Source: Escherichia coli (GTDB taxonomy: Bacteria; Pseudomonadota; Gammaproteobacteria; Enterobacterales; Enterobacteriaceae). Taken from it: a stretch of DNA of 64,000 nt. This document shows, one piece after another, positions 14,097 to 40,182 of this stretch. The DNA lies in NCBI RefSeq assembly GCF_002854065.1, contig NZ_CP024147.1. One strand, given 5' to 3'. The number at the start of each line of letters is the position of its first letter. Positions within the stretch are counted from its first letter, which is position 1. The notes beneath the pieces were generated by a model. It saw only the letters and a list, made by a program, of their open reading frames with translations, did no database searches and was not told the DNA's origin. A program made the translations under genes and the position numbers.

Positions 14097-14735
14097 ATGA
14101 AAAAGTTAACAGTGGCGGCTTTGGCAGTAACAACTCTTCTCTCTGGCAGTGCCTTTGCGCATGAAGCAGGCGAATTTTTTATGCGTGCAGGTTCTGCAAC
14201 CGTACGTCCAACAGAAGGTGCTGGTGGTACGTTAGGAAGTCTGGGTGGATTCAGCGTAACCAATAACACTCAACTGGGCCTGACGTTTACTTATATGGCG
14301 ACCGACAACATTGGTGTGGAATTACTGGCAGCGACGCCGTTCCGCCATAAAATCGGCACCCGGGCGACCGGCGATATTGCAACCGTTCATCATCTGCCGC
14401 CAACACTGATGGCGCAGTGGTATTTTGGTGATGCCAGCAGCAAATTCCGTCCTTATGTTGGGGCAGGTATTAACTACACCACCTTCTTTGATAATGGATT
14501 TAACGATCATGGCAAAGAGGCGGGGCTTTCCGATCTCAGTCTGAAAGATTCCTGGGGAGCTGCCGGGCAGGTGGGGGTTGATTATCTGATTAACCGTGAC
14601 TGGTTGGTTAACATGTCAGTCTGGTACATGGATATCGATACCACCGCCAATTATAAACTGGGCGGTGCACAGCAACATGATAGCGTACGCCTCGATCCGT
14701 GGGTGTTTATGTTCTCAGCAGGATATCGTTTTTAA
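14097..14735 (+). CDS. ompW: Outer membrane protein W (212 aa)
   Basis: Signal peptide MKKLTVAALAVTTLLSGSAFA; 8-strand beta-barrel family; C-terminal aromatic residue. Confidence 0.95.
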   Translation: MKKLTVAALAVTTLLSGSAFAHEAGEFFMRAGSATVRPTEGAGGTLGSLGGFSVTNNTQLGLTFTYMATDNIGVELLAATPFRHKIGTRATGDIATVHHLPPTLMAQWYFGDASSKFRPYVGAGINYTTFFDNGFNDHGKEAGLSDLSLKDSWGAAGQVGVDYLINRDWLVNMSVWYMDIDTTANYKLGGAQQHDSVRLDPWVFMFSAGYRF

Positions 14736-16492: not shown

Positions 16493-17299
16493 TTAACTGC
16501 GCGTCGCCGCTTTCATCGGTTGTACAAAAACTTTCAGTGCCGCCAGCATTTTCTCTGGCTCATTAATATGTTGCTCGATGATTTTAACAATGGCTGAACC
16601 AGAAATCGCGCCCGCAGCTCCTGCATCAATCGCTGCTTTTACCTGATCCGGGGCGGAAATACCAAATCCCTGCAATGGAGGTGCAGCGTTGTACTCTTTC
16701 AGCTTCGCAACCAGATGATTGAGGGGTAACGCGGCGCGGTTTTCTGCGCCGGTCACGCCCGCTCGTGACAGCAAATAGGTGTAACCACGACCGTAAGAGG
16801 CTATCTGGCGCAGCAGGTCGTCATCGGCATTTGGCGGGCAGATGAAGATAGGTGCGACATTATGGCGCAACGCGGCCTGGCGGAAGGGCGCGGACTCTTC
16901 AACTGGCACATCGGCAACCAGCACCGAATCGACGCCGACTTTTTCGCACTGGGCATAAAACTCATCAATGCCTTTGTTAAACACCAGATTGGCATACATC
17001 AACAGGCCAATGGGAATGGTCGGGTGTTTCTGGCGAATCAGAGCCAGCATTTCAAAACATTGTGCCGGAATCACACCTGCCGCAAAGGCGCGCAGAGTGG
17101 CGTTTTGAATGGTCGGGCCATCCGCCAGTGGGTCGGAGAAGGGGATACCTAACTCCAGCGCGTCAGCACCGGCTTCAATTAGCGTATCGATAATTTTCAA
17201 TGACTGCTCAATGCCCGGATCCCCGAGCGTGACGAAAGGAACGAATGCGCCTTCTTTGCGCTCCTTCAACTGGGCAAACAGAGATTCGTAGCGTTCCAT
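16493..17299 (-). CDS. trpA: Tryptophan synthase alpha subunit (268 aa)
   Basis: Full [31 protein letters not shown]... Confidence 0.97.
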
Positions 17300-18492
17300 C
17301 AGATTTCCCCTCGTGCTTTCAAAATATCGTGAACGGTGAAGATGTCTTTATCGCCGCGACCGGAAAGGTTAACCACCAGTAGCTGCTCTTTTTCCGGGTT
17401 TTCGCGCATCATTTTCAGCGCATGGGCCAGGGCGTGGGAGGATTCCAGCGCCGGGATGATCCCTTCGTGTAGGCACAGCGTCTTGAAGGCTTCAAGGGCT
17501 TCATCATCGGTAATAGACACGTAATCAGCGCGTCCAGTGCTGTTAAGATACGCGTGTTGTGGGCCGACAGACGGGAAATCCAATCCGGCGGAGATGGAGT
17601 AAGATTCTTCAATCTGCCCGTCTTCGGTTTGCATCATCGGCGCTTTCATACCGAAATAAATGCCCACGCGACCATGTTTTAGCGGTGCGCCGTGCTTGCC
17701 AGTTTCGATACCGTGACCACCAGGCTCCACACCAATCAGGCCGACGTCGGTTTCGTTGATGAAATCTGCAAACATACCGATGGCATTCGAACCGCCGCCA
17801 ACACAGGCGATAACGGCATCCGGCAGGCGACCTTCTCTTTCCAGAATCTGCGCTTTGGTTTCTTCGCCAATCATCCGCTGAAACTCACGCACAATGGTCG
17901 GGTAAGGATGCGGGCCAGCCGCGGTGCCCAGCATATAGTGCGCGGTTTCATAACTGCCGGACCAGTCGCGTAGCGCCTCATTACAGGCATCTTTCAGCGT
18001 GGCGGAACTGCTATGTACCGGGATCACTTCCGCACCCATTAAGCGCATACGAAAAACGTTAGGCGACTGGCGTTCAACGTCTTTGGCACCCATATAAATA
18101 CGGCATTTCAGGCCGAGCAGGGCGCTGGCAAGGGCAGACGCCACGCCATGCTGACCGGCACCGGTTTCGGCGATGATTTCGGTTTTACCCATCCGCTTCG
18201 CCAGTAAAGCCTGACCGAGCACCTGGTTAGTTTTATGCGCGCCGCCGTGCAGCAAATCTTCGCGCTTCAGATACAGCGTGGTTTTCGTCCCAGCCGTAAT
18301 GTTCTGGCATTTGGTCAGTGCGGTTGGACGCCCGGCATAGTTTTTCAGTAGGTCGTTGAACTGGGCTTGAAATTCAGGATCTTTTTGCGCGCTGACAAAA
18401 GCTTCTTCCAGCTGGCGCAGAGCAGGCATCAGGATTTGTGGCACGTACATGCCGCCAAACTCACCAAAATAGGGGTTAAGTAATGTTGTCAT
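17299..18492 (-). CDS. trpB: Tryptophan synthase beta subunit (397 aa)
   Basis: Full ORF; PLP-binding Lys region HGGAHKTNQ; stop overlaps trpA start. Confidence 0.97.
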
Positions 18493-18503
18493 TTTTCCTT
18501 TCC

Positions 18504-19865
18504 TTAATATGCGCGCAGCGTCTGGAAAACCGAGGCCAAAAGACGTGCATCTTTGATGCCCGGTTGCGACTCTACAGCAGAATTAAAATCAAGTCCGGCG
18601 CAGCCGGTTTGTGCCGCTTCCACGCAGTTATCTGCGCCTAAGCCCCCCGCCAGCAGAACGTTGCCAAGCGATTGACCGTTTAACAGTGACCAGTCGAAAC
18701 GTTGCCCGCTTCCACCCTGGCCGTTGTCTAAAACATATTTATCAACGTGCTGAAGCTCGCGGGCGGGCAGGGTTTCACCGACGCTTAATGCTTTCCAGAT
18801 GGCAATGTTTGCGGGCAGCGCGCCACGCAATGTGTCGATATATTGTTGATCTTCATTACCATGCAGTTGCACTGCCGCCAGTAATAACACCTTAGCTTTG
18901 TCCAACACATCGCCAATATCGTGATTGCGGAACACGCCAACATACTGCAACGGTGCCGCAGCCATCACTTCCTGCGCCTGTTCAACGTTGACGCAACGTG
19001 GTGATGTCGCAACAAAAATCAACCCACCGTAAATCGCGCCCGCGTCATACGCTGCTTTAGCATCTTGCCCACGCGTCAGGCCACATACTTTATTCTCACC
19101 CAGCAACACCCGACGCACGGCGGCGTGCAAATCGTCATGGGCCATCAACGCCGAACCAATCAGAAAACCGTTAGCGAAGTGGCTTAACTCGCGCACCTGA
19201 GAGTAAGTATTGATGCCGGATTCGCTGATTACCGTCACGTTGTGCCCCAGTTTCGGCGCAAGCTCGCGGGTACGGTTGAGATCAATCGACAAATCACGCA
19301 GATCGCGGTTGTTGATGCCAACGACCTTTGCCCCCAATGCAATGGCGCGCTCCAGCTCCTCTTCATTACTGACTTCGGTCAGCACCCCCATCTCCAGACT
19401 GTGAGCGACGGCTGCAAGCTGGCGATATTGGTCGTCATCCAGTACTGAAAGCATTAATAAGCAGGCATCGGCCTGGTAATAGCGCGCCAGATAGATCTGG
19501 TAAGGGTCGATAATGAAGTCTTTACATAAAATCGGCTGCGGGGCGATTTGGCTGACGATGGGGAGGAAATCAAAGCTCCCCTGAAAATATTTCTCATCAG
19601 TCAGCACCGAAATTGCCGAAGCGTAATGTTTATAAATGGCGGCAATGCGTGCTGGATCGAAATCATCACGGATCACGCCTTTTGACGGCGACGCTTTCTT
19701 GCACTCCAGAATAAACGCCGTGCGCGCACCCTGTAGCGCATCATAAAAATGTCGCGTGCTCGGCTGAACCTCATTCTGAAAACTGGCCAGCGGTTGCTGC
19801 TGTTTGCGGGCTTCTACCCAAATCGCCTTGTCTGCGACGATTTTCGCTAAAACGGTTTGCATCAT
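18504..19865 (-). CDS. trpC: Bifunctional indole-3-glycerol phosphate synthase / phosphoribosylanthranilate isomerase (453 aa)
   Basis: Full [24 protein letters not shown]... Confidence 0.97.
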
Positions 19866-21461
19866 TTACCCTCGTGCCGCCAGTGCGGTGACTCTGTCGT
19901 AAGCGGAACCACTGCGCAGTACCTCAAGAACGGTTTGCGCATTGGCTTGCAGATCTTCATGGCCATGCAGGCGCATTAACATGGCGACGTTCGCAGCGAC
20001 GGCTGCTTCATGGGCGGCGTCGCCTTTACCTTGTAACAAGCGTGTTAAAATGTCACGGTTTTCTTCCGGTGTTCCGCCTGCCAGTTGCTCCTGGTGGTAG
20101 GGTGTCAGGCCAAAGTCTTCTGCGGTGAGCTGATAGCTCTTAATTTCGCCATCGTGCAGCTCGGCAACGATTGTCGGCGCGTGTAATGAAACTTCATCCA
20201 TCCCGCCGCTGTGCACCACCGCCGCGCGTTGATACCCCAGCACGCGCAAGGTTTCGGCAATCGGCAGCACCAGTTCCGGACTATAAACACCAATTAACGC
20301 CAGCGGCGGATGCGCCGGGTTAATCAATGGCCCCAGCACATTGAACAGGGTGCGGGTTTTCAGTTGCTGGCGAACCGGCATCGCGTGGCGGAATCCGGTG
20401 TGATATTTCGGCGCAAAGAGGAAACATACGCCTAACTCATCCAGCGCCTGGCGCGATTTATCGGCGTTCATATCAAGATTAATACCGAACGCCGCCAGCA
20501 GATCGGACGAACCAGATTTACTGGAGACGCTACGGTTGCCGTGTTTCGCCACTTTCAGCCCACAGGCCGCGGCGACAAACGCACTGGCGGTAGAAATATT
20601 GATACTGTTGCTGCCGTCACCGCCAGTACCGACGATATCAGCAAACAGATAATCCGGGCGCGGGAACGGCGCTGCGTTTTCCAGTAGCGCGGTTGCTGCT
20701 CCGGCGATCTCGTTCGGGTGCTCGCCGCGAATTTTCATGCTCACCAGCGCCGCCGCCAGTTGTTCCGGTTTCAGTTCGCCACGTACCACCGCTGAAAATA
20801 GCTGATGACTTTCCTGCTGGCTAAGGGTCTGCGCCTGATACAGTTTTTCCAGAATCGGTTGCAGCGTGTTGGTTGGCTCTAGTTTCTGCTGCGCCCAGGC
20901 CAGCGTTTGTTCCAGCAGGCGAGCGCCCTGGGTGGTGAGAATGGATTCCGGGTGGAACTGGAATCCGCAAACGCGATCTGCATCGTGACGCACCGCCATC
21001 ACCATGCCATTAAAATGGGCGTTGATGGTTAAACCGGCCGGAATATTACTGCCAACCAGCGAGTGATAACGCGCCACCGGCAATGGGTTTGTTAATCCGG
21101 CAAACATCGCCTGACCGTCATGTTCAATGCTGGAGGCTTTACCGTGAAGAATTTCGCCCGCCTGACCGACATACCCCCCGTAGGCTTCGACAATCGCCTG
21201 ATGACCGAGGCAAATGCCAATAATCGGCAGCTTACCGCGCAAGCGGGTGAGGAGTTCTGGCATACAACCGGCTTCACTCGGCACACCTGGCCCCGGAGAA
21301 AGCATCAGCACCGGATTGCTCATCGTCGCCAGGCGTTCAATTAAGGTTTGCGCCGGAATATGGTTGCGGTAAATCACCACGTTATGCCCATTGCTGCGCA
21401 ACTGATCTGCCAGGTTGTAAGTAAAAGAGTCGATATTATCGAGCAGCAGAATGTCAGCCAT
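19866..21461 (-). CDS. trpD: Anthranilate synthase component II / anthranilate phosphoribosyltransferase (531 aa)
   Basis: ORF 19866..21464; start placed at second Met (MADILLLDN), overlapping the trpE stop in a TGATG arrangement. Confidence 0.95.
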
Positions 21462-23023
21462 CAAAAAGTCTCCTGTGCATGATGCGCGGTGGCGATAGCG
21501 CGCAGTACAGCGCGGGCTTTATTACGGGTTTCGTCGGCTTCCGACTGCGGAACAGAATCAAGGACTACGCCAGCACCGGCTTGCACGGTGGCGATACCGT
21601 TTTCCACCAGCGCCGAGCGGATCACAATGCAGGTGTCGAGATCGCCATGCGCGGTGAAATAACCTACCGCGCCGCCGTAGCTGCCGCGGCGACGACCTTC
21701 CGCCTCGGCAATTAACTGCATAGCACGCACTTTCGGCGCACCGCTTAACGTTCCCATATTCATACAGGCGCGGTAAGCGTGCAGGGCGTCGAGATCGTGG
21801 CGCAGCTCACCGACCACGCGGGAGACCAGGTGCATCACGTAAGAGTAACGGTCAACTTTGGTAAGATCGGCGACGTAGCGGCTGCCGGGGGTGCAAATGC
21901 GTGCCAGATCATTACGGGCGAGATCCACCAGCATCAGATGTTCAGAAAGCTCTTTATGATCGGTACGCATTTCCAGTTCGATGCGGCTGTCGAGGTCTCT
22001 GTCCAGTGAACCATCGGCACGACGACCGCGTGGACGTGTTCCGGCAATCGGGTAGATCTCAATCTGGCGGCTGGTGGCGTCATACTTGAGCGAACTTTCC
22101 GGCGACGCGCCAAACAGGGTGAAATCATTATCCTGCATAAAAAACATGTACGGGCTGGGATTACTCTTTTTCAACACGTAATAGGCCGCCAGCGGTGACG
22201 GGCAGGGCAGCGAGAAACGGCGAGATGGCACGACCTGGAAAATTTCTCCGGCGCGAATCGCTTTTTGCAACAAACGCACTACGCCACCGAACTCTTCATC
22301 GCTCTGGTTACATTCACAACGCATATGCGGCACGGAAACCACCGGCAGCGGCGGCGCGGCTTCGGTCAGTTGCTGACGTAGTTCGTTCAGGCGAGCAGTG
22401 AGACGTTGTTTTTCTTCTTCATTCGGAGCAAACAGGCTGGCCTGAATACGGGTGCTTTTTTTCTGATGGTCAATCACCATCAGAGTTTCAGCGAGATAAA
22501 AACAGAAATCAGGGCAGTTATTTTCCGCTGACAGTTGCGGTAAATCTTCAAACCCCGCCACAAGGTCATAAGAGAACAGGCCGCCGAAGAACATGGCTTC
22601 TCGTTCTTCCTTCGGTACATTCAACAGATTCTGCAATAAGCGGAAAGCGTCAAAAACCGAAAGGGAGCATAAGCGAGCGTCTTCATCCAGCAGTGGACTA
22701 ACAGGGGGGAAGAGCAGCACACGGCAGTTTGGTAATTGTTCATTTTCCACACCCGCAGGCAGGGCGTTATCCAGTAGTGTCAGCAGGGCTTCGCCGTTGC
22801 CGGAAAGGGACTGGATTGTGACAGTGTCACCTAAAGCTGTAATGCGCAGCGCACTGTCTACCAGCAGCAGGCTTTTTAAATCATCTTTGCTGTCGATATC
22901 TGCGGATTCCAGCAGCAGCGTTGCCGGACGATCCCCACACAACTGGTGAAAAAGCGCGGTGGGATTGTCGCGATAAGCGCCTTCGCAGGTTAGCAGTTCG
23001 AGAGTCGGTTTTTGTGTTTGCAT
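21461..23023 (-). CDS. trpE: Anthranilate synthase component I (520 aa)
   Basis: Full [46 protein letters not shown]... Confidence 0.97.
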
Positions 23024-23044: not shown

Positions 23045-23072
23045 AAAAAAAAGCCCGCTCATTAGGCGGGCT
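23045..23072 (-). terminator. trp attenuator (3:4 terminator hairpin plus U-tract)
   Basis: Minus strand reads agcccgcctaatgagcgggc followed by tttttttt, between trpL and trpE. Confidence 0.9.
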
Positions 23073-23114
23073 GGGTATCTGATTGCTTTACGCATGGTGA
23101 ATACACTGCCCGTT

Positions 23115-23159
23115 TCAGGAAGTGCGCCACCAACCTTTCAGTACGAAAATTGCTTTCAT
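23115..23159 (-). CDS. trpL: trp operon leader peptide (14 aa, [14 protein letters not shown])
   Basis: Minus-strand ATG AAA GCA ATT TTC GTA CTG AAA GGT TGG TGG CGC ACT TCC TGA with tandem Trp codons. Confidence 0.9.
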
Positions 23160-23179: not shown

Positions 23180-23221
23180 GAACTTGCGTACTAGTTAACT
23201 GGTTCGATGATTAATTGTCAA
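23180..23221 (-). promoter_or_regulatory. trp promoter (-35 TTGACA, -10 TTAACT) with overlapping TrpR operator
   Basis: Minus strand reads ttgacaattaatcatcgaaccagttaactagtacgcaagttcacg; the operator differs by one base from the K-12 dyad as I remember it (see findings). Confidence 0.85.
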
Positions 23222-23296
23222 CAGCTCATTTCAGAATATTTGCCAGAACCGTTATGATGTCGGCGCAAAAAACATTATCCAGAACGGGAGTGCGCC

Positions 23297-35105: not shown

Positions 35106-35160
35106 GGTGATGCTGCCAACTTACTGATTTAGTGTATGATGGTGTTTTTGAGGTGCTCCA

Positions 35161-35436
35161 GTGGCTTCTGTTTCTATCAGCTGTCCCTCCTGTTCAGCTA
35201 CTGACGGGGTGGTGCGTAACGGCAAAAGCACTGCCGGACATCAGCGCTATCTCTGCTCTCACTGCCGTAAAACATGGCAACTGCAGTTCACTTACACCGC
35301 TTCTCAACCCGGTACGCACCAGAAAATCATTGATATGGCCATGAATGGCGTTGGATGCCGGGCAACCGCCCGCATTATGGGCGTTGGCCTCAACACGATT
35401 TTCCGCCATTTAAAAAACTCAGGCCGCAGTCGGTAA
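35161..35436 (+). CDS. insA: IS1 InsA (91 aa)
   Basis: [43 protein letters not shown]... matches IS1 InsA. Confidence 0.95.
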
Positions 35437-35858
35437 CCTCGCGCATACAGCCGGGCAGTGACGTCATCGTCTGCGCGGAAATGGACGAACAGTGGGGATA
35501 CGTCGGGGCTAAATCGCGCCAGCGCTGGCTGTTTTACGCGTATGACAGGCTCCGGAAGACGGTTGTTGCGCACGTATTCGGTGAACGCACTATGGCGACG
35601 CTGGGGCGTCTTATGAGCCTGCTGTCACCCTTTGACGTGGTGATATGGATGACGGATGGCTGGCCGCTGTATGAATCCCGCCTGAAGGGAAAGCTGCACG
35701 TAATCAGCAAGCGATATACGCAGCGAATTGAGCGGCATAACCTGAATCTGAGGCAGCACCTGGCACGGCTGGGACGGAAGTCGCTGTCGTTCTCAAAATC
35801 GGTGGAGCTGCATGACAAAGTCATCGGGCATTATCTGAACATAAAACACTATCAATAA
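35355..35858 (+). CDS. insB: IS1 InsB frame; transposase InsAB' is made by -1 frameshift at the A-run near 35410-35420
   Basis: ORF matches IS1 InsB; A6C slippery motif ttaaaaaactc present. Confidence 0.9.
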
Positions 35859-35873
35859 GTTGGAGTCATTACC

Positions 35874-40013: not shown

Positions 40014-40182
40014 GAAATTCTCCAGATAATGCTGGTTCTGTATTGGCTTATTTTGCCATAACGAGAAGGGGTTCACCTAATCACGACGCGTCGATCGTTC
40101 ACGGAATGGCACAAATCTGTCAATTTTTCCTGGAACTGGCATTTTCAGTTATGATTGTGGGACTTATCAAAAAGGAGAGGCC

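What the first reader, a model, noticed from the sequence alone, without database searches (positions are those of the whole stretch)
23188..23207. trp operator carries a base change that breaks its dyad symmetry
On the coding (minus) strand the operator reads cgaacCagttaactagtacg. The K-12 operator as I remember it is cgaacTagttaactagtacg, a perfect ACTAGTTAACTAGT palindrome. The difference (plus-strand G at 23201) lies in the upstream half-site, 3 nt before the -10 hexamer. This could weaken TrpR binding and partly derepress the operon, or change promoter strength. The rest of the promoter, leader peptide and attenuator look canonical.
Basis: partly seen in the sequence, partly recalled or inferred. 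Interest (0 to 1): 0.4.

Follow-up and report, generated by a model that had tools for sequence, protein, structure and literature searches.

The report
Recurrent natural trp operator variant
The single-base change in the tryptophan operator is real, but it is a recurring natural allele, found in about 3% of E. coli genomes and as the normal state in several related genera, so it probably tunes repression mildly rather than breaking it.

Summary
On the minus strand, window 23206..23187 reads CGAACCAGTTAACTAGTACG. K-12 MG1655 has CGAACTAGTT… at this site. The difference is T>C at -16 (plus-strand G at 23201). It turns the promoter-distal CTAG into CCAG. The promoter hexamers, trpL, the attenuator and trpEDCBA are otherwise intact.

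It is not a private lesion. The C allele occurs in 185 of 5,426 complete E. coli genomes, including 536, F11 and W. It sits on at least five different flanking haplotypes that are interleaved with T-allele relatives. Nine of about 69 trp promoters from other Enterobacterales species also carry it.

All other changes tested in the distal CTAG were found in no genome. The dyad-mirror change (-7 A>G) occurs in 22 genomes. K-12's own mtr operator contains the same ACCAGT half-site. A near-identical strain has a TrpR protein identical to K-12's.

Best reading: this is a recurrent, tolerated CTAG>CCAG substitution, the change that Vsr short-patch repair favours. It probably weakens one TrpR half-site modestly. 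The size of the effect was not measured. Interest is low to moderate.

The parts
23201..23201 (-). Variant base. It is C on the coding (minus) strand where K-12 has T, at position -16. It is base pair 5 of the promoter-distal TrpR half-site (GAACT>GAACC; CTAG>CCAG).
23187..23206 (-). trp operator, CGAACCAGTTAACTAGTACG. The dyad centre lies between 23196 and 23197. The proximal half-site ACTAGT is intact.
23216..23221 (-). -35 hexamer TTGACA of the trp promoter
   Evidence: identical to K-12
23193..23198 (-). -10 hexamer TTAACT, with a 17-nt spacer. It lies inside the operator.
   Evidence: identical to K-12
23185..23185 (-). Transcription start (+1, the A of AAGTTCACG). This is taken from the K-12 literature and was not measured here.
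   Evidence: plus established knowledge
23115..23159 (-). trpL leader peptide ([14 protein letters not shown]), identical to K-12
23045..23138 (-). Trp leader / attenuator RNA (Rfam RF00513, 93.1 bits)
23052..23072 (-). Attenuator terminator hairpin followed by a T run
16493..23023 (-). trpE (21461-23023), trpD (19866-21461), trpCF (18504-19865), trpB (17299-18492), trpA (16493-17299). All reading frames are open.

Best explanation
This is the ordinary trpLEDCBA promoter-operator carrying a natural allele, T>C at -16. The change converts the promoter-distal CTAG to CCAG. It alters base pair 5 of the half-site motif GNACT. The allele is derived, because T is found in E. albertii and the cryptic Escherichia clades. 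It has arisen or been transferred repeatedly. CTAG>CCAG is the change that Vsr (very-short-patch) repair of T:G mismatches favours. Among the CTAG positions, this is the one where purifying selection lets the change persist. The most likely consequence is a modest loss of affinity of the central TrpR dimer for the distal half-site. That would give somewhat leakier repression when tryptophan is plentiful. The intact proximal half-site, tandem TrpR binding, unchanged TrpR and the intact attenuator would keep the operon regulated. Shown here: the allele, its frequency, its multiple backgrounds, its occurrence in other genera, and the intactness of trpR, the leader and the operon. Inferred: the Vsr origin, and the direction and small size of the effect on repression.
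For: The sequence and the K-12 comparison establish the allele. I searched with 55-mers centred on the variant, so that every 28-base seed must contain it. C at -16 gave 185 of 5,426 genomes. T gave 5,199. A and G gave none. Transitions at the other three distal CTAG positions also gave none: -17 C>T, -15 A>G and -14 G>A. The dyad-mirror change -7 A>G gave 22 genomes. -8 T>C, which would hit the last T of the -10 hexamer, gave none.

In the flanking-sequence analysis, C alleles fall in five separate places of a neighbour-joining tree, interleaved with T alleles. The window's nearest neighbour is a T-allele O145:H28 strain. The site is four-gamete incompatible with 59 of 102 informative sites, against 19% on average. 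One of those sites is only 15 bp away.

In the species-representative scan, 69 genuine trp promoters split as 59 CTAG/CTAG, 9 CCAG/CTAG (Pectobacterium x2, Samsonia, Tenebrionibacter, Entomohabitans, Phytobacter, one Enterobacter, one Buttiauxella, one MAG) and 1 CTAG/CTGG. No other dinucleotide appeared.

The K-12 mtr operator reads GTACCAGTACACGAGTAC, and the weak half of the aroL operator is ATACCATCA. So 2 of 10 natural K-12 half-sites already have C at base pair 5. mtr and aroL are accepted TrpR targets (PMC5343134).

TrpR of CUWW06 is identical to K-12 TrpR, and so is its autoregulatory operator. CUWW06 is collinear with the window over 44 kb with 9 mismatches. Strain 536 has an intact trpR with one C-terminal substitution.

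Literature held here says VSP repair tends to turn CTAG into CCAG and depletes CTAG in E. coli (PMC4687349, PMC5337935, PMC2715241).
Against: No binding or expression measurement exists here. From my own knowledge, the classical genetics and biochemistry identify CTAG as the main specificity determinant of TrpR (Bennett & Yanofsky 1978; Bass et al. 1987; Haran et al. 1992). I could not retrieve those papers. On that basis a one-half-site change could cost about tenfold in affinity, which would not be 'modest'. The two K-12 operators that carry C at this position, mtr and aroL, are by my recollection the weaker sites. The genomes I fetched for the haplotype analysis were chosen for diversity, which inflates the homoplasy statistic. 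Recombination rather than repeated mutation could explain part of the mosaic. The Vsr link rests on the type of change only. VSP would hit the inner T of each CTAG equally, and those changes are never seen, so selection must be invoked as well. The species scan required exact flanks. It also failed to return the E. coli, Salmonella and Klebsiella representatives, so its denominator is incomplete.
Confidence: 0.6

Rival explanations
1. It is a true operator-constitutive allele. TrpR binding to the central site is strongly reduced. The trp operon is substantially derepressed in tryptophan-replete conditions, and the allele has been selected repeatedly because higher basal tryptophan synthesis helps in some niches.
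For: The base lies in CTAG, the core of the TrpR recognition sequence (own knowledge). It recurs on many backgrounds and in several genera. The exact mirror change is the only other operator-core variant seen. That pattern is what repeated selection on one tuning position would give.
Against: It stays at 3.4% frequency, and many carrier lineages are unremarkable commensal or animal isolates. The same half-site serves in the regulated mtr operator. A>G on the contacted strand keeps the purine N7 that, according to PMC4139847, carries the water-mediated contacts. No expression data exist.
Confidence: 0.15
2. It is a fully neutral polymorphism with no measurable effect on TrpR occupancy or trp expression. 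It is visible only because Vsr-biased repair keeps regenerating it.
For: It persists long term as the species state in Pectobacterium/Samsonia and others. Natural operators carry C at this position. Attenuation and feedback inhibition buffer expression (established knowledge).
Against: Every other substitution tested in the distal CTAG is absent from 5,426 genomes, so the tetranucleotide is under strong constraint. The T allele remains at 96%. If C were strictly neutral and favoured by mutation bias, it should be commoner.
Confidence: 0.2
3. The main effect is on promoter strength, not repression. The base sits three nucleotides upstream of the -10 hexamer. That is the position of the T of the extended -10 'TGn' motif.
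For: The geometry is read from the sequence. T is favoured at that position in sigma-70 promoters (own knowledge).
Against: The trp promoter has A, not G, at the next position. It is therefore not an extended -10 promoter, and the T alone contributes little. The mirror variant at -7 cannot be explained this way.
Confidence: 0.05
4. It is a sequencing or assembly error in this window.
For: None.
Against: The identical base is present in 185 independently sequenced complete genomes. Two of them are identical to the window over 4 kb.
Confidence: 0

Closest known systems
E. coli K-12 trp promoter-operator (TrpR operator of trpLEDCBA)
   Same: Same locus, same -35 and -10 hexamers, same leader and attenuator. 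19 of 20 operator bases are identical.
   Different: T>C at -16 removes the distal CTAG, so the 14-bp perfect palindrome becomes imperfect.
K-12 mtr operator (TrpR-regulated tryptophan permease gene)
   Same: It contains the same ACCAGT half-site, with C at base pair 5.
   Different: It is a different promoter. Its other half-site is also imperfect (CTCG). It is co-regulated by TyrR (own knowledge).
Laboratory trp operator-constitutive (Oc) mutations (Bennett & Yanofsky 1978), recalled from memory; paper not retrievable here
   Same: Single base changes within the symmetric operator core overlapping the -10 region.
   Different: Those were selected for loss of repression. This one is a standing natural allele of unknown strength. 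I could not check whether the identical substitution was among them.
Mirror-image natural variant -7 A>G (CTAG>CTGG) in an O145:H28 sublineage and in Escherichia sp. MOD1-EC7003
   Same: The same base pair (5) of the half-site and the same transition, on the other arm of the dyad.
   Different: It affects the promoter-proximal half-site next to the -10 hexamer. It is much rarer: 22 genomes and 1 species.
Vsr / very-short-patch repair footprint (CTAG depletion, CCAG/CTGG excess in E. coli)
   Same: The substitution is exactly CTAG>CCAG (PMC4687349, PMC5337935).
   Different: Here the CTAG is functional and otherwise strongly conserved. Only one of the two Vsr-type changes per CTAG is ever seen.

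Membership tests
trpLEDCBA promoter-operator of Enterobacteriaceae | Lies between a TTGACA -35 hexamer and the trpL leader, overlapping the TTAACT -10 hexamer | tested here: met
trpLEDCBA promoter-operator of Enterobacteriaceae | Two inverted ACTAGT half-sites around a TT|AA centre | tested here: inconclusive
   The proximal half-site is intact. The distal one reads ACCAGT. 17 of 18 core positions match K-12.
trpLEDCBA promoter-operator of Enterobacteriaceae | A cognate TrpR repressor is encoded in the genome | tested here: met
   trpR is outside the window. In CUWW06, which has 9 mismatches to the window over 44 kb, TrpR is 108/108 identical to K-12. It is also intact in carrier strain 536.
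trpLEDCBA promoter-operator of Enterobacteriaceae | Tryptophan-dependent binding of TrpR to this DNA | not testable with these tools
   Needs EMSA, footprinting or a reporter assay.
Operator-constitutive (Oc) allele | Base change at a position used for repressor recognition | tested here: met
   The position is the T of GNACT / CTAG. Its importance rests on literature recalled from memory.
Operator-constitutive (Oc) allele | Cis-dominant rise in operon expression under repressing conditions | not testable with these tools
   No expression data.
Vsr (very-short-patch repair) driven substitution | T>C at the second position of CTAG/CTWGG | tested here: met
   PMC4687349, PMC2715241
Vsr (very-short-patch repair) driven substitution | Recurrence of the same change on independent backgrounds | tested here: met
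   Sampling bias is noted.
Vsr (very-short-patch repair) driven substitution | Dependence of the mutation rate on vsr | not testable with these tools
   Needs vsr+ versus vsr- mutation assays.
Trp leader / attenuator (Rfam RF00513) | Covariance-model match above the gathering score, with a leader peptide carrying tandem Trp codons | tested here: met
   93.1 bits against a cut-off of 41.

The most novel reading that the evidence does not exclude
Base pair 5 of the TrpR half-site may be an evolutionary tuning position. CTAG>CCAG at -16, and its mirror at -7, would then be repeatedly selected natural operator-constitutive alleles. They would raise basal tryptophan synthesis in particular lineages (the ST127-type uropathogens such as 536 and F11, E. 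coli W, some O55/O157-related strains, Pectobacterium). On this reading they are adaptive regulatory variation, not drift plus repair bias.
Probability: 0.15. Interest if true: 0.45.

Novelty: new member of a known kind. Interest (0 to 1): 0.22.

Why it matters
The trp operator is a textbook repressor target, and its sequence is usually treated as invariant. If the allele measurably loosens repression, about 3% of E. coli would run the trp operon at a different set-point from K-12. That group includes widely used strains such as 536, F11 and W. This is relevant for people who use the trp promoter, TrpR biosensors or strain W for tryptophan production. It would also be a clean natural example of a repair-system bias (Vsr) eroding a functional CTAG, with selection allowing only one of the possible changes. 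If the allele has no effect, the finding is simply ordinary polymorphism.

Tried and rejected
Sequencing error was rejected: 185 independent genomes carry the allele.

'A private mutation of this strain' was rejected.

'TrpR is missing, so the operator is decaying' was rejected. TrpR is identical to K-12 in the near-identical strain CUWW06 and intact in 536.

I tried to read the primary literature on operator mutations and on Vsr: Staacke 1990, Haran 1992, Miozzari & Yanofsky 1978, Bhagwat & McClelland 1992, Gunsalus & Yanofsky 1980 and Gong 2022. None is held. Text searches found no paper describing this natural allele.

The consensus promoter scan does not report the trp promoter, because TTAACT matches only 3 of 6 consensus positions. 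It was therefore uninformative on promoter strength.

A local test of Vsr bias had no power. It asked whether other CTAG sites in the 3.25-kb alignment change to CCAG or CTGG, and there is only one other CTAG.

The 536-type haplotype has no close T-allele relative among complete genomes: 47 genomes are at >=99% identity and the rest at <=98.9%. So the age of the mutation in that lineage could not be bounded.

Full report
**1. Observation**

Read on the minus strand, the window gives ...TTGACAATTAATCATCGAACCAGTTAACTAGTACGCAAGTTCACG.... A pattern search places the 20-mer CGAACCAGTTAACTAGTACG at 23206..23187, with one mismatch to the K-12 form. The variant coordinate, plus-strand G at 23201, is correct.

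I fetched the K-12 MG1655 locus and aligned it. K-12 has T where the window has C. Over 445 aligned bases there is only one other difference, an A>G inside the divergent rnm gene.

Taking +1 as the A of AAGTTCACG (window 23185, from the K-12 literature), the change is T>C at -16. It lies in the promoter-distal CTAG, 3 nt upstream of the -10 hexamer TTAACT. The rest of the locus is canonical:

- The -35 is TTGACA with a 17-nt spacer.
- trpL is identical to K-12.
- Rfam Trp_leader scores 93.1 bits at 23045-23138.
- The attenuator terminator is at 23072-23052.
- All five trp reading frames are open.

**2. Frequency in E. coli**

I searched the 5,426 complete E. coli genomes with 55-mers centred on the tested base. 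Every 28-base megablast seed then has to contain that base. The counts were:

| Position and change | Genomes |
|---|---|
| -16 T (K-12 allele) | 5,199 |
| -16 C (window allele) | 185 |
| -16 A | 0 |
| -16 G | 0 |
| -17 C>T | 0 |
| -15 A>G | 0 |
| -14 G>A | 0 |
| -8 T>C (last T of the -10 hexamer) | 0 |
| -7 A>G (exact dyad mirror of -16 T>C) | 22 |

Within the distal CTAG, T>C at -16 is therefore the only change seen in nature. The only other operator-core variant is its mirror image, found mostly in one O145:H28 sublineage. Carriers of the C allele include well-known strains (536, F11, EC93, BH100, E. coli W) and many animal and environmental isolates.

**3. One origin or many**

I fetched 4-kb loci from nine further C-allele genomes and from five T-allele genomes, and aligned about 3.25 kb of flank together with the window's own sequence, itself a C allele.

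- C alleles sit on at least five distinct haplotypes: the window; 536/STEC299; O55:H7 DEC5E/cattle strain 113; H15/CFSAN029787/STEC313; and W.
- The gene content next to yciO differs between these haplotypes (yciQ present or absent).
- The window's closest sequence is a T-allele O145:H28 strain, at 29 differences.
- The H15 group is 1 difference in 1,570 upstream bases from a T-allele O111 strain.
- In a neighbour-joining tree the C alleles are interleaved with T alleles.
- The -16 site fails the four-gamete test with 59 of 102 informative sites, against a 19% average. One of those sites is the -1 C/A site, only 15 bp away.

I chose the genomes for diversity, so these numbers overstate the homoplasy. 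Even so, repeated mutation (or very short conversion tracts) is the simplest reading.

**4. Other species**

I scanned one genome per GTDB species with the exact pattern TCGAACNNGTTAACNNGTAC. It returned 93 matches. Of these, 69 are genuine trp promoters, with a -35 TTGAC at the right distance and usually a trpL with tandem Trp codons. They split as follows:

- 59 have CTAG/CTAG.
- 9 have CCAG/CTAG, the window's variant: Pectobacterium betavasculorum, P. versatile, Samsonia erythrinae, Tenebrionibacter, Entomohabitans, Phytobacter diazotrophicus, Enterobacter sp. kpr-6, Buttiauxella sp. B2 and one MAG.
- 1 has CTAG/CTGG: Escherichia sp. MOD1-EC7003.
- No other dinucleotide occurs in a genuine promoter.

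E. albertii and Escherichia sp. E1V33 have T at -16, so C is the derived state in E. coli. The variant is thus compatible with long-term maintenance of the locus.

There is a caveat. The scan needs exact flanks, and it did not return the E. coli, Salmonella or Klebsiella representatives. I cannot explain that, so the denominator is incomplete.

**5. What the base does**

In the half-site motif GNACT (base pairs 9 to 5 counted from the dyad), T(-16) is the final T. The change makes GAACT into GAACC.

From my own knowledge of the classical work, CTAG is the main specificity determinant, read largely through water-mediated contacts to purine N7 atoms. That work is Bennett & Yanofsky 1978, Bass et al. 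1987, Otwinowski et al. 1988 and Haran et al. 1992. None was retrievable here. A held review confirms the water-mediated contacts to purine nitrogens, at roughly 1 kcal/mol each (PMC4139847). The substitution changes A to G on the contacted strand, which keeps N7.

I extracted the other K-12 TrpR operators:

- mtr reads GTACCAGTACACGAGTAC, which includes the same ACCAGT half-site.
- The weak half of aroL reads ATACCATCA.
- Both halves of aroH and of trpR have T at this position.

So 2 of 10 natural half-sites in K-12 already have C at base pair 5, in operators accepted as TrpR targets (PMC5343134). The repressor itself is unchanged. CUWW06 is collinear with the window over 44 kb with 9 mismatches, and its TrpR and its trpR operator are identical to K-12's. 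Strain 536 has one conservative C-terminal change.

**6. Origin of the change**

CTAG>CCAG is the substitution attributed to very-short-patch repair. Vsr converts T:G mismatches in CTWGG-like contexts to C:G. This is the accepted explanation for CTAG scarcity in E. coli (PMC4687349; PMC5337935; PMC2715241).

Both observed operator variants are of this type, one on each strand. Both Ts of each CTAG have the same ACTAGT context, so Vsr should hit the inner T as often as the outer one. Yet -15 A>G and -8 T>C are never seen.

Selection must therefore filter the outcomes. -8 is the invariant last T of the -10 hexamer. -15 A>G would create a TGn extended -10 motif and alter base pair 4. This part is inference.

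**7. Verdict**

The feature is the ordinary trp promoter-operator with a recurrent natural allele. I put about 0.6 on the reading 'repair-biased, tolerated substitution that weakens one half-site modestly while regulation is kept'. I put about 0.2 on 'no measurable effect', about 0.15 on 'a strong, possibly adaptive operator-constitutive allele', and about 0.05 on a promoter-strength effect.

A binding assay and isogenic reporter fusions would settle the matter. I found no description of this natural allele in the searchable literature. It is, however, plainly visible in public genomes of famous strains, and it is a single-base allele of the best-known repressor target. Interest is low to moderate.

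Noticed in passing
window 35106-35873: A 768-bp IS1 element sits between ymiA and cysB. It is present in the window and in strain CUWW06 (annotated IS1B) but absent from the otherwise near-identical strain 100416. The alignment ends overlap by 8 bp, consistent with a target-site duplication.
   Followed up: partly
window 14097-14735 versus L010 30766-44001: ompW is intact in the window and in CUWW06. In strain 100416 it is truncated by a lambdoid prophage (tail fibre, gpJ, tape-measure genes).
   Followed up: partly
related loci: H81-H90 (O145:H28 genomes); L100 12743-region: The mirror-image operator variant -7 A>G (proximal CTAG>CTGG) occurs in 22 genomes, mostly an O145:H28 sublineage, while O145:H28 RM12761 keeps CTAG. 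It also occurs in Escherichia sp. MOD1-EC7003.
   Followed up: partly
L003, L011, L012, L115 (trpL codon 9; corresponds to window 23133-23135): A second trpL allele, Gly9Ala (GGT>GCT, immediately before the two Trp codons), occurs in O121, O145:H28, strain 2018-05-2CC and E. coli W. The window has the K-12 form.
   Followed up: no
L002, L115, L003, L116 (positions -1, -4, -44, -28 of the trp promoter): Other natural promoter/operator variants were seen: -1 C>A (O111 RM9322, E. coli W), -4 A>G plus -44 G>C (O121), and -28 T>C in the spacer (cattle strain 113, together with -16 C).
   Followed up: no
L002, L003, L008, L009, L115 upstream of yciO: In B1-type haplotypes rluB lies directly next to yciO, so yciQ is missing. 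The window, K-12, 536 and O145:H28 keep yciQ.
   Followed up: no
H150 (NZ_CP045864.1, 96-kb record of O157:H7 ATCC 43890) 40052-40094: A 43-nt exact copy of the trp promoter upstream part, ending just before position -16, lies on a plasmid-sized record. Six to nine trp-promoter matches on plasmids were also reported in the genome-wide searches.
   Followed up: no
Genome-contig scan: The exact-pattern scan returned no E. coli, Salmonella or Klebsiella species representative, although the K-12 sequence fits the pattern. Either those representatives differ in the flanks or the scan is incomplete.
   Followed up: no
window 23230-23258 (+ strand): A sigma-70-like site (TTCAGA, 17 nt, TATGAT) faces the divergent rnm gene, about 30 bp from the trp operator variant. 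It is a consensus match only.
   Followed up: no
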